From the human T2T-CHM13v2.0 reference genome, Homo sapiens, in NCBI RefSeq assembly GCF_009914755.1, contig NC_060930.1: DNA of 64,000 bases, one strand, 5' to 3'. How positions within the stretch are numbered: the stretch's first letter is position 1; each line of letters starts with the position of its first letter. A model generated the notes under the pieces. That model was not told the origin of the DNA. It was given only the letters and a program-made list of their open reading frames with translations, and made no database searches. Below are positions 25,099-27,924 of this stretch, in pieces. Made by a program: the position numbers and the translations under genes.

Positions 25099-25317
25099 TG
25101 AAATGGATCAAGTACATCTAGTGGACATTGACAGGTATCAGCAAAGATGGGCCATTACAATGGAGAAGCTTAGGAGGATGATGAACATCATGCCAGAGGT
25201 GGTGTTTAGCGTCAAACCTCTTAATAGTGCCAGTGAATAACACTCACTGCTGGTATTATATATGCAGTAGTGAATAAGTGAAGAACTATAACCATAATAT
25301 GCTCACTTCTTGCTATT
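25099..25317 (+). repeat. 219-bp inverted duplicate of 26540-26758 (DNAJA1 C-terminal codons, stop and proximal 3' UTR)
   Basis: Manual alignment to reverse complement of 26540-26758: 12 mismatches, no indels. Confidence 0.95.
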
Positions 25318-25347
25318 TCATTTTATCTTCTGATTACCAGTTAAATA

Positions 25348-25937
25348 TAGTGGTCCCTTAGTATCCATGGGGGATTGGTTCCATGACCCTCCTGGGTACC
25401 AAAATCCAGATGTTCAAATAGTGTGCTATTTGCCTATAACACATCCACAACCTGCTATATACTTTTTTTTTTTTTTTTTTTGAGATGGAGTTTTGCTCTT
25501 GTTGCCCTGGCTGGAATGTAATGGCATGTTCTCAGCTCACCGAAACCTCCACCTCCTGGGTTCAAGTGATTCTCCTGCCTCAGCCTCCCGAGTAGCTGGG
25601 ATTACAGGCATGTACCACCATGCCCGGCTAATTTTGTATTTTTTTAGTAGAGACAGGGTTTCTCCATATTGGTCAGGCTGGTCTCAAACTCACGACTTCA
25701 GATGATCCGCCCTCCTCAGCTTCCCAAAGTGCTGGGATTACAGGCGTGAGCCACCATGCCTGGCCAACCTGCTATATACTTTAAATCATCTTTAGATTAC
25801 TTATAATACCTAATATAATGTAAATGCTATATAGTTACACTGTACTTTAAAAATTTTTATCTTTTTTATTGTTTTTTTTTTTTTAATATTTTAAATCTAG
25901 GGCTGGTTGAATTTGCTGATATGGAGGGCGAACCATA
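25348..25937 (+). mobile_element. MER2 (TcMar-Tigger) element inserted at a TA in the pseudogene 3' UTR and split by an Alu
   Basis: 'gtcccttagtatccatgggggattggttcca...accaaaatcc' and 'tactttaaatcatctttagattacttataatacctaata...ggttgaat...gatatggagggcga'. Confidence 0.85.
25463..25765 (-). mobile_element. AluSp-like SINE
   Basis: Diagnostics 'ttgctcttgttgccc', 'aatggc', 'gctcaccg', 'tttctccat..tggtcagg'; TSD aacctgctatatac 25449-25462 / 25766-25779. Confidence 0.95.
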
Positions 25938-26106
25938 CAGAGTTTTAATTTCAAAGTTTAACAATGAATGGCCATAAGTGGAGGTCGATACATATGCTTA
26001 GCATTTCAAGCTAAGCTTGCTCATAGACACATCTGAAATTAATTACAAGACATGACCTAACAAATGCTAGCGGAACTTTTCTTAAAAGTAATTTTTACAG
26101 ATATTA

Positions 26107-26400
26107 GGCCAGGTGTGGTGGCTCATGCCTGTAATCCCAGCACTTTGGGAGGCCGAGGTGGGTGGATCATGAGGTCAGGAGACTGAGACCATCCTGGCTA
26201 ACACGGTGAAACCCCGTCTCTACTAAAAATTAAAAAATTAGCCGGGCGTGGTGGCGGGCGCCTGTAGTCCCAGCTACTCGGGAGGCTGAGGCAGGAGAAT
26301 GGTGTGAACCCGGGAGGCGGAGCTTGCGGTGAGCCGAGATCGTGCCACTGCACTCCAGCATGGGCGACAAAGCAAGACTCCGTCTCAAAAAAAAAAAAAA
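26107..26400 (+). mobile_element. AluY SINE
   Basis: 'gaccatcctggctaacacggtg', 'agaatggtgtgaacccgggaggcggagcttgc'; long TSD aaaagtaatttttacagatatta. Confidence 0.97.
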
Positions 26401-27924
26401 GTAATTTTTACAGATATTAAATGTCATCTTGCTCACTGATGTCAACATATATTTAGGGCAAAGTCAGAGCTTTTATATTTTCATTTATTATTCATTTAAC
26501 TTTTAAAACACTACTATAATTGAGTATTAAAACAAAAACAATAGCAAGAAGTGAGCATATTATGGTTATAGTCCTTCACTTGTTCACTACTGCACATATA
26601 ATACCAGCAGTGAGTGTTACTCACTGGCACCATTAAGAGGTTTGACACTGAACACCACCACTGGTATGATGTTCATCATCCTCCTAAGCTTCTCCATTGT
26701 AATTGCCCATCTTTGCTGATACCGGTCAATGTCCACCAGATGTACTTGATCCATTTCATCAGCGTCTTTTACTTCCTACCTCTTAGGCAGGAGTTATTCC
26801 AGCAAAGAGAGTTTATCAGGAGACAGAAAGGCATTCTCACGGAAGTAGGCCTTAAATTTGATGATTAGGTGATCCTTTTCATAGGATCTACAATAAACTG
26901 GCATGCCTTCATTTAGCGCACACTTAATATCTCTATGCTTGACAATCTGAGTTGGGGGATGAGAGGTGTTGACTGGGGTTTGGTTGTCAAGGGTGGATAT
27001 TGGCTTTTGGAAGACATGCAGTGCTTCAATCAGTTTTATGTTCATACACATGAAAAGGTCTTCTGGTCGAATAAGAAAGTATGGTCCTTCTGATCTAAAA
27101 CAATGATAATATCTCCTGGCTCCTGATCTCCTTCACCATGAAAGATATCTACTGTTCGTCTTTCACGCCTTTGTCATGAACTTGTAGAATCTTCTTCTCT
27201 CAAACTATCCTCCTTCCATTGCAACTTTTACATCTATCTTTAGGACTGATCTCCTCCCCATGGCTCTGGCATTCCATGCACACAGACTGAAATTCTTGAG
27301 CCATTCTAGGTCGTATCTGATGAATTCTTATTTGCATTCTAGTACTTCAGTGATTGGGACAGCACTCTACTGCCCCTTTCTTACCACCTTGGCCTACATA
27401 CTTGCCACAAATCACATTATTTTATGGAGCTAATTTTCTTGTTGCACCATTAAATACATCTTCTGTGGTTACTGAGAGCTGATGCACAATATTTTTACCT
27501 CTTTTTCTCTCTGCATCCTTCCTCTTCCTTCAAATAACATATCAACGATGTCCATGAGGGAGCCAAAACTGCCACTCACTTCACCCTTTTTAATTGCCCA
27601 CTCTCCTCTTTTCTCAAATAATTCAATTTTCTTTGCTTCAGAGAGCACTTCATAAGCTTGAGAAATCTGTTTACACTTCTGTTTGTTATTTGGATTCTCA
27701 CCAGGGTAGTAATTCAAGACCAGTTTCCTGTAAGACTCTCTTAACTCTTCCTGGATGGCATTGGGTATCACCCACAAACCATTACAGTAAGTGGTTTCTT
27801 TCACCACTTTCTACAGCTGGCAAGGGGGCTAAGGCTGGTGTGTGGGAGCAAGAAGGAGTTTGGGCAGCTACCACTCCTCCACCTCTCACCAAGTGTTTTG
27901 GAAAGCTCCCTCACATGAGTTCTT

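What the first reader, a model, noticed from the sequence alone, without database searches (positions are those of the whole stretch)
25099..26758. 1.66-kb compound hairpin: a 219-bp inverted duplication in register with an inverted AluSp/AluY pair
Seen: outer arms 25099-25317 and 26540-26758 are reverse complements (12/219 mismatches, no indels), with symmetry axis 25928.5. Inside them an AluSp (-) and AluY (+) are head-to-head, with axes 25936 (5' ends), 25934 (body ends) and 25931.5 (tail ends). The unpaired spacers are nearly equal (145 vs 139 nt), around a 341-nt terminal loop. The left arm is an insertion into otherwise continuous DNAJA1 3' UTR. Both arms share pseudogene-specific lesions (e.g. 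GCT-TAG-GAG where DNAJA1 has A-Y-E), so it was copied locally after decay began. Inference: a free minus-strand 3' end near 25318 folded back through the Alu pair, which placed it on the in-register donor and primed intramolecular copying. The inverted Alus would then have acted as a ruler that extended their own palindrome. The ~5.5% arm divergence is compatible with an event after AluY insertion.
Basis: partly seen in the sequence, partly recalled or inferred. Interest (0 to 1): 0.85.

Follow-up and report, generated by a model that had tools for sequence, protein, structure and literature searches.

The report
Local inverted copy inside DNAJA1 pseudogene
A 219-base piece of an old DNAJA1 pseudogene was copied backwards into the pseudogene's own tail about 1.2 kb away; this is a real repair or replication scar, but the idea that two facing Alu repeats guided the copy like a ruler is not supported.

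Summary
Arms 25099-25317 and 26540-26758 are reverse complements with 12 mismatches and no indels.

The right arm is native. It is the end of the coding region and the start of the 3'UTR of the DNAJA1P4 retrocopy. The left arm is a clean insertion into the same retrocopy's 3'UTR.

The two arms share 23 derived substitutions and 2 indels against the parent gene on chr9. They differ from each other at 12 sites. No other genomic copy is closer than 85%. The copy was therefore made locally, after most of the decay.

The Alu "ruler" is not supported:
- The arm register is 11-15 nt off the Alu register.
- The spacers do not pair.
- The junctions have 0-1 nt of microhomology.
- In a fold of the pre-event strand, the 3' end pairs beside the Alu tail, not at the donor.
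- Dating cannot place the younger Alu before the copy: 1.75% versus 2.5% per lineage, P = 0.60.

Best reading: a one-off template-switch or fold-back templated insertion. The Alu pair may have helped, but this is unproven. Primate orthologues would decide the question.

The parts
24354..27909 (-). Full extent of the DNAJA1P4 processed retrocopy: coding-region-like part, 3'UTR-derived part and later insertions. The annotation covers only 26636-27807.
   Evidence: blastn map against the parent's last exon (L002); the parent on C9 matches in 8 separate exon pieces, while the window copy is contiguous. DnaJ domain, E = 2.7e-12; an A7 remnant where the parent 3'UTR ends.
24339..24353 (.). Left target-site duplication of the retrocopy. 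Its partner is at 27910-27924. The repeat is 15 nt with 1 mismatch.
   Evidence: Read. The 8-nt exact core GAGTTCTT was found.
25099..25317 (+). Left arm: the inserted, inverted copy. The plus strand reads in DNAJA1 sense, from the end of the coding region into the first ~95 nt of the 3'UTR.
   Evidence: I1; matches L002 1183-965 inverted, 85%; the flanks are adjacent in the parent 3'UTR; shared lesions with the right arm.
25318..25345 (-). 28 nt of retrocopy 3'UTR lying between the arm insertion site and the interspersed repeat.
   Evidence: alignment to parent L002 around positions 1470-1500.
25348..25935 (.). Interspersed repeat resembling a DNA transposon, inserted at a TA. The flanking TA copies are at 25346-25347 and 25936-25937. 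The older Alu is nested inside it.
   Evidence: the parent has a single TA at this site; 490 first-look candidates genome-wide, and 40 of 40 scored candidates match at 81-91% (one of them is the query's own place); a copy also lies downstream of DNAJA1 (L002 3282-3469).
25463..25765 (-). Its 14-nt target-site duplication is at 25449-25462 and 25766-25779.
   Evidence: I2-I6; nearest genomic copies are 88-91% identical; non-CpG divergence 11/254 = 4.3%. The duplication was read.
25766..26106 (.). 341-nt terminal loop between the two Alu 5' ends. It holds the rest of the interspersed repeat, the TA, 3'UTR matching L002 1302-1467, and the right Alu's target-site duplication.
26107..26400 (+). The direct repeats are at 26084-26106 and 26397-26419.
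   Evidence: D3; nearest genomic copies are 92-94% identical; non-CpG divergence 4/228 = 1.75%, and 11 of 52 CpG positions changed.
26401..26539 (-). Right spacer: native retrocopy 3'UTR, matching roughly L002 1184-1320.
   Evidence: One search shows no in-register pairing with the left spacer.
26540..26758 (-). Right arm: the donor, in its native context. It is contiguous with the parent's coding region and 3'UTR on both sides.
   Evidence: 26846-26401 matches L002 877-1320 at 86%..

Best explanation
DNAJA1P4 is an old L1-type processed retrocopy of DNAJA1 on the minus strand, spanning 24354-27909.

Long after it was inserted, a single DNA-level copying error duplicated 219 nt. This happened after a TA-flanked interspersed repeat and the older Alu had entered its 3'UTR. 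The copied stretch runs from the end of the coding region into the start of the 3'UTR (26540-26758). The copy was placed in inverted orientation about 1.2 kb downstream in the same 3'UTR, at 25098|25318, with no loss of target sequence.

The most likely mechanism is a transient template switch. A growing 3' end left its template at the insertion site and copied 219 nt of the opposite-sense strand nearby. It could have done this by folding back on its own strand or by switching to the other strand at a fork or a break. It then returned. In four-point notation this is a 1-4-3-2 or 3-2-1-4 event, during replication or double-strand-break repair.

What is shown:
- which arm is the donor and which the copy;
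- that the insertion is clean;
- that the origin is local and late.

What is inferred:
- that a polymerase switched templates, rather than a free fragment being captured;
- which strand was involved.

The inverted Alu pair in the loop may have shortened the effective distance by forming a stem in single-stranded DNA. It did not set the register, and its presence at the time of the event is unproven.

The product is an inert compound hairpin in the intron of a predicted lncRNA. No function is indicated.
For: Local copy, made late:
- 219-nt ungapped inverted repeat, 95% complementary.
- the right arm is collinear with the parent exon. The left arm interrupts 3'UTR whose two flanks are adjacent in the parent.
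- 23 shared derived substitutions and 2 shared indels against the parent. There are 7 left-only differences, 4 right-only and 1 three-way. The 12 arm differences are scattered along the arm.
- the arms are each other's closest relatives in the whole genome, at 95%. The next best are the parent at 85% and the chrX retrocopy at 84%.

Fit to known template-switch events:
- Passages of PMC7954356 read say that event orders 1-4-3-2 and 3-2-1-4 are the majority patterns of template-switch events, and that these patterns generate single inverted repeats.

Against an Alu-set register:
- the Alu stem does form in silico. However, the arm register is 11-15 nt off, the spacers do not pair, and the pre-event 3' end is not placed on the donor.
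Against: - Both junctions show only 0-1 nt of microhomology. Polymerase switching usually leaves 2 nt or more. In passages of PMC3907307, 13 of 18 fold-back junctions that lacked repeat homology had 2-8 bp.
- The 219-nt tract and the 1.2-1.66 kb jumps are far beyond the short-range events catalogued so far. That catalogue searched within +/-100 nt.
- If the Alus played no part, a complete head-to-head Alu pair nearly centred in the loop remains a coincidence at the level of a few percent (own estimate).
- No ancestral allele has been seen directly. The parent mRNA stands in for it.
Confidence: 0.7

Rival explanations
1. After a break or a stall, the minus-strand 3' end at 25318 folded back through an Alu-Alu stem. 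This placed it in register on the donor and primed copying on its own strand. The inverted Alus would have acted as a ruler that extended their own palindrome. A weaker version holds that the stem only brought the two sites closer.
For: - The geometry allows intra-strand copying: order 3-2-1-4, with point 2 ahead of point 1 on the nascent strand (passages).
- The two Alus are 233 matches, 47 mismatches and 4 gaps, which is about 82%. This is inside the range of up to 25% heterology at which Alu inverted repeats fold back in long single-stranded DNA in yeast, whatever their spacing (abstract of PMC10164571).
- The Alu stem forms in folds of both the pre-event and present strands.
- The spacers are 145 and 139 nt.
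- A stem would shorten the loop to be closed from 1222 nt to about 263 nt. By ideal-chain scaling, that makes contact roughly 10 times more likely (own estimate).
- Inverted Alus have been seen at human fold-back junctions. Three of 21 junctions had LINE or SINE homology, including one with 296 bp between 90%-identical AluY elements (PMC3907307 passages).
Against: - The register is off by 11-15 nt.
- The spacers are unrelated sequence, with only 8 off-register pairs.
- Flexible spacers cannot measure length. Loop-closure scaling favours sites near the stem, and gives P = 0.028-0.039 for a match this close.
- The pre-event 3' end pairs at 26414-26423. Its summed probability there is 4.25 of 12, against 0.005 at the donor junction.
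- There is 0 nt of microhomology at the 25318/26539 junction.
- The known inverted-repeat fold-back pathway removes the non-homologous tail and primes from the repeat itself (abstract of PMC10164571). That would give a copy contiguous with the Alu, which is not what is seen.
- Dating does not place the younger Alu first: 1.75% versus 2.5% per lineage, P = 0.60. The point estimate favours the reverse order.
- There is no conversion footprint between the two Alus. The only shared private states are 2 CpG positions.
Confidence: 0.25
2. Capture of a free 219-nt DNA fragment. The fragment, for example a flap or an over-replicated piece from 26540-26758, would have been joined into a nearby double-strand break by end joining. 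Orientation would be random and the Alus irrelevant.
For: - Both junctions are effectively blunt, with 0 and 1 nt of shared sequence.
- The insertion removed no target bases.
- The copy has sharp ends on both sides.
Against: - Nothing distinguishes this directly from a polymerase switch.
- It leaves the nearness of donor and target, and the centred Alu pair, as coincidences.
The mechanism is recalled, not checked.
Confidence: 0.15
3. The inverted piece arose during the original retrotransposition, by L1 twin priming or a reverse-transcriptase template jump. The arms were later homogenised by gene conversion, which would mimic shared lesions.
For: Inverted segments of a retrocopy are a known outcome of twin priming (recalled, not read here). 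Inverted repeats can undergo gene conversion.
Against: - The inverted piece sits inside the 3'UTR, 745 nt (25098 to 24354) from the poly(A) end, not at the 5' end of the insertion.
- First-strand cDNA that had reached this 3'UTR position would not yet have copied the upstream coding-region end. No antisense template for it existed at that point (inference from geometry).
- The 12 arm differences are scattered and split 7 to 4 between the arms. That is as expected for simple divergence since one late event.
- Arms of 219 nt are short for efficient conversion (recalled).
Confidence: 0.03
4. The 219 nt were reverse-transcribed from a local transcript and inserted at a break, so the template was RNA rather than DNA.
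For: The locus lies in the intron of a predicted plus-strand lncRNA (hub annotation). Templated insertions from RNA are known (recalled).
Against: - The arm has no poly(A) and no target-site duplication.
- The arm carries the local pseudogene's lesions. The template was therefore this locus, and a DNA template explains that more simply.
Confidence: 0.04

Closest known systems
Short-range template-switch mutations (four-point model; PMC7954356, passages read; PMC8794818 and PMC13100816, search listing and start of abstract only)
   Same: A stretch is replaced or inserted by the reverse complement of nearby sequence, which creates a new inverted repeat or hairpin in one step. The switch-point order here (1-4-3-2 or 3-2-1-4) is the majority pattern reported to generate single inverted repeats.
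   Different: Catalogued events are sought within +/-100 nt and are tens of nucleotides long. Here 219 nt were copied across jumps of 1222-1660 nt. The event neither converts nor extends a pre-existing near-palindrome contiguously.
Fold-back (intrastrand annealing) inverted duplications: PMC3907307 (passages); PMC10164571 and PMC6103520 (abstract and outline)
   Same: A resected 3' end pairs with its own strand across a kilobase-sized loop (reported spacers 766 bp to 70 kb) and primes synthesis. Inverted Alus can supply the pairing and tolerate up to 25% divergence and wide spacing in single-stranded DNA.
   Different: Those events give dicentric chromosomes and large duplications with terminal deletions. 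Their junctions lie inside the repeats or at 2-8 bp of microhomology, and the non-homologous tail is removed. Here synthesis stopped after 219 nt and the end was rejoined. Both spacers are kept, and the junctions lie 126-145 nt outside the Alus with 0-1 nt of microhomology.
Snap-back templated insertions in alternative end joining (Pol theta, SD-MMEJ): PMC4912351, PMC5728401, PMC2943611 (search listing and start of abstracts only)
   Same: A 3' end at a break primes limited synthesis in cis on its own strand, helped by nearby sequences that form secondary structure. It is then joined to the other end, leaving an inverted templated insert.
   Different: From recall, such inserts are typically a few to tens of nucleotides, copied from within tens of nucleotides of the break and primed by short repeats. 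Here the insert is 219 nt, the template is 1.2 kb away, and no primer repeat is visible.
L1 twin priming (5' inversion of retrocopies; recalled, not read here)
   Same: It yields an inverted segment of the same retrocopied RNA next to the direct segment.
   Different: The inverted part should be at the 5' end and date from the insertion. Here it lies in the 3'UTR and shares 23 substitutions and 2 indels of later decay with its donor.

Membership tests
Processed (L1-mediated) retrocopy of DNAJA1 | Intronless copy of a multi-exon parent | tested here: met
   window 26759-27909 is contiguous, while the parent on C9 matches in 8 separate pieces between 33043036 and 33055337; the last exon and 3'UTR are collinear with the parent apart from later insertions.
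Processed (L1-mediated) retrocopy of DNAJA1 | Poly(A) remnant at the mRNA 3' end and flanking target-site duplication | tested here: met
   an A7 run where similarity to the parent 3'UTR ends. A 15-nt direct repeat with 1 mismatch lies at 24339-24353 and 27910-27924 (read; 8-nt exact core).
Processed (L1-mediated) retrocopy of DNAJA1 | Encodes DnaJ-type sequence, with disabling lesions | tested here: met
   Pfam DnaJ domain, E = 2.7e-12, on 27604-27807; a TAG where the parent has TAT, plus a 1-nt deletion in the coding-region end.
Template-switch mutation (four-point model) | The new segment is the reverse complement of nearby sequence and is absent from the ancestral state | tested here: met
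   The parent mRNA is used as a proxy for the ancestral 3'UTR. No orthologue was available.
Template-switch mutation (four-point model) | Short range: the template lies within about 100 nt | tested here: not met
   The jumps are 1222 and 1660 nt. The +/-100 nt search space is stated in PMC7954356.
Inverted-repeat-mediated fold-back (intramolecular single-strand annealing) | The inverted repeats are similar enough to anneal in single-stranded DNA (up to 25% heterology) | tested here: met
   233 matches, 47 mismatches, 4 gaps (about 82%); the stem forms in silico. The threshold comes from the abstract of PMC10164571.
Inverted-repeat-mediated fold-back (intramolecular single-strand annealing) | The junction lies within the repeat or at inverted microhomology, and the copy is contiguous with the repeat after tail removal | tested here: not met
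   The junctions lie 145 and 139 nt outside the Alus. Microhomology is 0-1 nt. The spacers are kept and are not complementary.
Inverted-repeat-mediated fold-back (intramolecular single-strand annealing) | Both repeats were present before the event | tested here: inconclusive
   Non-CpG divergence: right Alu 4/228 = 1.75% (95% Poisson interval 0.48-4.49%); arms 11/434 = 2.53% per lineage (1.27-4.54%); equal-rate P = 0.60. The left Alu, at 4.33%, is older.
L1 twin priming | The inverted segment lies at the 5' end of the insertion and was formed at insertion | tested here: not met
   The arm lies inside the 3'UTR and shares later lesions with its donor.
Alu SINE (both elements in the loop) | About 280-nt body with an A tail, flanking target-site duplications, and very many genomic copies | tested here: met
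   2963 and 4691 first-look candidates, and every scored candidate gave a near-full-length match (40 and 41 match rows; one search also lists one short secondary row). (D3) and one search give the duplications. Subfamily names were not tested because no repeat library is held. Rfam found nothing at gathering scores.

The most novel reading that the evidence does not exclude
Inverted Alu pairs act as clamps in resected or nascent single-stranded DNA. The clamp lets a 3' end beyond one Alu copy DNA from beyond the partner Alu, at a matching distance. Alu palindromes would thereby grow outward into compound hairpins made of non-repeat DNA. If so, this locus would be the first fossil of a recurrent, register-keeping process that builds long hairpins in primate genomes. 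Such hairpins could also serve as double-stranded RNA sources from pseudogenes.
Probability: 0.1. Interest if true: 0.65.

Novelty: new member of a known kind. Interest (0 to 1): 0.3.

Why it matters
As it stands, this is a clean, datable fossil of a mid-sized templated inverted insertion in the primate germline: 219 nt copied across about 1.2 kb. That size class falls between the short template switches catalogued within +/-100 nt and the large fold-back duplications seen in patients.

It shows that a long hairpin can arise in one step inside neutral DNA. The arms are 95% paired over 219 nt.

If inverted Alu pairs do promote such events, that would link yeast and clinical findings on Alu fold-back to ordinary genome evolution. 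It would also suggest a route by which pseudogene-derived hairpins are born. The present evidence does not show this.

No function is indicated for the locus itself.

Tried and rejected
- **Rfam scan of 24000-28200 at gathering scores:** 0 matches, Alus included. It was no help in naming the repeats.
- **Microhomology priming at the donor junction:** I looked by eye for a priming site. A short A/T patch set back from the 3' end predicts a junction sequence that is not the one observed. Rejected.
- **Conversion footprint between the two Alus, as an Alu-Alu heteroduplex might leave:** only 2 shared private states were found, both at CpG positions. Nothing to report.
- **Mini-survey of other inverted Alu pairs.**
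  - Sample: 70 sources and 290,161 bases, made up of the window plus fetched loci. I dropped 5 loci that overlap this locus and 5 duplicate loci.
  - Count: 166 near-full-length Alus and 34 adjacent opposite-orientation pairs with a gap of 1500 nt or less. Two pairs had flanks too short to test.
  - Result: of the 31 other pairs examined, 9 had inverted flank matches. All 24 of those flank intervals tested are themselves Alu. So 0 of 31 other pairs carry a non-Alu flank inverted repeat.
- Limits: the sample is small and biased towards Alu-rich loci.
- **Link between the arm insertion and the TA-flanked repeat 28 nt away (aberrant transposition):** rejected. The arm is not at the repeat's end, and that repeat already carried the older Alu (4.3% diverged, against 2.5% per arm).
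- **Assembly artefact:** rejected. The arms differ at 12 scattered sites, and each arm has its own flanks.
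Full report
**1. Observation**

The repeat finder reports arms 25099-25317 and 26540-26758. 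They are 219 nt long, ungapped, 95% complementary and 1222 nt apart (I1). A three-way alignment counts 12 differences in 218 aligned columns, 9 of them transitions.

The same call shows the Alu-Alu inverted matches between the arms (I2-I6). It also shows a 23-nt direct repeat flanking the right Alu (D3). The left Alu's 14-nt target-site duplication is readable, at 25449-25462 and 25766-25779.

- axis 25928.5;
- Alu 5' ends at 25765 and 26107, with a 341-nt loop;
- spacers of 145 and 139 nt.

A whole-genome search with the left arm finds 9 places. The right arm scores E = 7.6e-92, and the rest are DNAJA1 and its retrocopies. The repeat is therefore neither chance nor a dispersed repeat family.

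Folded as DNA, the present plus strand 25080-26780 adopts the compound hairpin:
- 210 of 219 arm positions pair at coordinate sum 51857;
- 262 Alu-Alu pairs form at sums 51868-51872;
- the spacers contribute only 8 off-register pairs.

**2. What the pieces are**

The window's own assembly is held. The parent gene's last exon was fetched as L002 on contig C9. The blastn map of the window's minus strand against L002 reads as follows:

| Window | L002 | Identity | Comment |
|---|---|---|---|
| 26846-26401 | 877-1320 | 86% | end of coding region and start of 3'UTR |
| about 26104-26400 | none | n/a | the right Alu |
| 26106-25935 | 1302-1467 | 77% | 3'UTR |
| 25089-24368 | 1501-2203 | 72% | 3'UTR |
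| 25317-25099 (left arm) | 1183-965, inverted | 85% | the inserted copy |

The coding-region-like part is contiguous here, whereas the parent matches in 8 exon pieces. It encodes a DnaJ domain.

An A7 remnant lies where parent similarity ends. A 15-nt direct repeat with one mismatch, at 24339-24353 and 27910-27924, bounds the whole element. DNAJA1P4 is therefore a processed retrocopy spanning 24354-27909, about three times its annotated length.

Between L002 positions 1467 and 1501 the pseudogene holds 845 extra bases. resolves them into three parts:
- A TA-flanked interspersed repeat at 25348-25935. The parent has one TA at this site. A genome search gives 490 first-look candidates, and 40 of 40 scored candidates match. 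This repeat carries the older Alu.
- 28 nt of ordinary 3'UTR at 25318-25345.
- The 219-nt arm. After the arm, the 3'UTR resumes at 25098.

Most of the left "spacer", however, is a separate and older mobile element.

**3. Local and late origin**

Against the parent, the two arms share 23 derived substitutions and 2 indels. They differ at 7 left-only, 4 right-only and 1 three-way site.

Each arm is 13-14% from the parent and 5.5% from the other arm. No other copy in the genome exceeds 85%. The copy was made at this locus, after roughly four-fifths of the arms' divergence from the parent had accrued.

An origin during reverse transcription does not fit the geometry. The inverted piece lies in the 3'UTR, and cDNA synthesis that had reached this point would not yet have made any template for it.

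**4. Junctions**

Homology stops abruptly at both ends. Between the recipient flank and the donor flank there is 0 nt of shared sequence at the inner junction (25317/25318 against 26540/26539). There is 1 nt at the outer junction. No target bases were lost.

**5. Test of the Alu "ruler"**

Six results bear on it.

- **Register.** The Alu pair pairs at sums 51868-51872 and the arms at 51857. The offset is 11-15 nt.
- **Spacers.** They are unrelated sequence and do not pair in register. Nothing rigid connects the stem to the priming site.
- **Polymer statistics.** For flexible tails, ideal-chain loop closure favours sites close to the stem. It gives P = 0.028-0.039 for a donor start within 11-15 nt of equal length. 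That is no better than a uniform null, which gives 0.011-0.06 depending on range.
- **Pre-event fold.** The pre-event minus strand (26800 down to 25318) does form the Alu stem. Its last 12 nt, however, pair with 26414-26423 beside the Alu tail. The summed probability is 4.25 of 12, against 0.005 at the donor junction. Present-day sequence stands in for the ancestral one.
- **Known pathway.** The established inverted-repeat fold-back pathway trims the non-homologous tail and primes from the repeat (abstract of PMC10164571). Human fold-back junctions that involve Alus lie inside the Alus (PMC3907307 passages). Here both spacers survive.
- **Order of events.**
  - I compared each Alu with a majority consensus of its 29 nearest genomic copies. 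The right Alu differs at 4 of 228 non-CpG sites (1.75%) and at 11 of 52 CpG positions. The left Alu differs at 11 of 254 non-CpG sites (4.3%).
  - The arms differ at 11 non-CpG sites over 434 lineage-sites, or 2.5% per lineage.
  - Equal rates are not rejected (P = 0.60). The point estimate puts the copy at or before the younger Alu's arrival.

There is also no conversion footprint between the two Alus.

**6. What remains in favour of Alu involvement**

A complete head-to-head Alu pair, 82% identical, sits nearly centred in the loop. Such pairs fold readily in single-stranded DNA in yeast (abstract). A stem would cut the loop to be closed from 1222 nt to about 263 nt.

By my rough estimate, the co-occurrence is a coincidence at the level of a few percent under either order of events. 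I therefore keep the weaker "clamp" version at about one in four, and the strict ruler at about one in ten.

In a small and biased sample, 0 of 31 other inverted Alu pairs had a non-Alu flank inverted repeat. This shows only that such structures are rare.

**7. Comparison with known mechanisms**

The event has the switch-point order that generates single inverted repeats in the four-point template-switch model. It is much longer in both range and tract than the catalogued events.

It resembles fold-back inverted duplication and snap-back templated insertion in its logic. It fails their defining junction features.

I file it as a new, mid-sized member of the class of templated inverted insertions or template switches, not as a new mechanism.

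**8. Verdict**

- A local, late inverted copy is shown.
- The Alu ruler is not supported. Alu assistance is possible but untested.
- The decisive test, primate orthologues, could not be run here because only this genome is held.
- Supplementary tables of the cited papers were not consulted.

Noticed in passing
window 24354-27909 (annotation: 26636-27807): The DNAJA1P4 annotation covers only the coding-region-like part. The retrocopy also includes about 2.3 kb of 3'UTR-derived DNA with three later insertions, an A7 tail remnant, and a 15-nt target-site duplication at 24339-24353 and 27910-27924.
   Followed up: yes
window 25348-25935: A TA-flanked interspersed repeat resembling a DNA transposon, with the older Alu nested inside. 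A genome search gives 490 first-look candidates, and 40 of 40 scored candidates match. Another copy lies downstream of DNAJA1 itself (L002 3282-3469). The family name was not determined.
   Followed up: partly
window 12815-13091 (-) and 13467-13741 (+): A second head-to-head Alu pair in the window, with a 375-nt gap. It has no inverted homology in its 800-nt flanks.
   Followed up: partly
window 24861-24967: An AT-rich stretch of TATATG-like sequence inside the 3'UTR-derived part. It matches many tandem arrays elsewhere in the genome at 74-81%, for example at C6:78.77 Mb, C13:85.46 Mb and C23:146.46 Mb (query positions 132-238).
   Followed up: no
window 24000-28200: The Rfam gathering-threshold scan returns nothing, even for the two 7SL-derived Alus.
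   Followed up: no
window 25099-26758, in the intron of predicted lncRNA LOC107986638 (+): If the intron is transcribed, the 219-bp arm duplex together with the Alu duplex would form a long double-stranded RNA. Neither expression nor RNA editing was examined.
   Followed up: no
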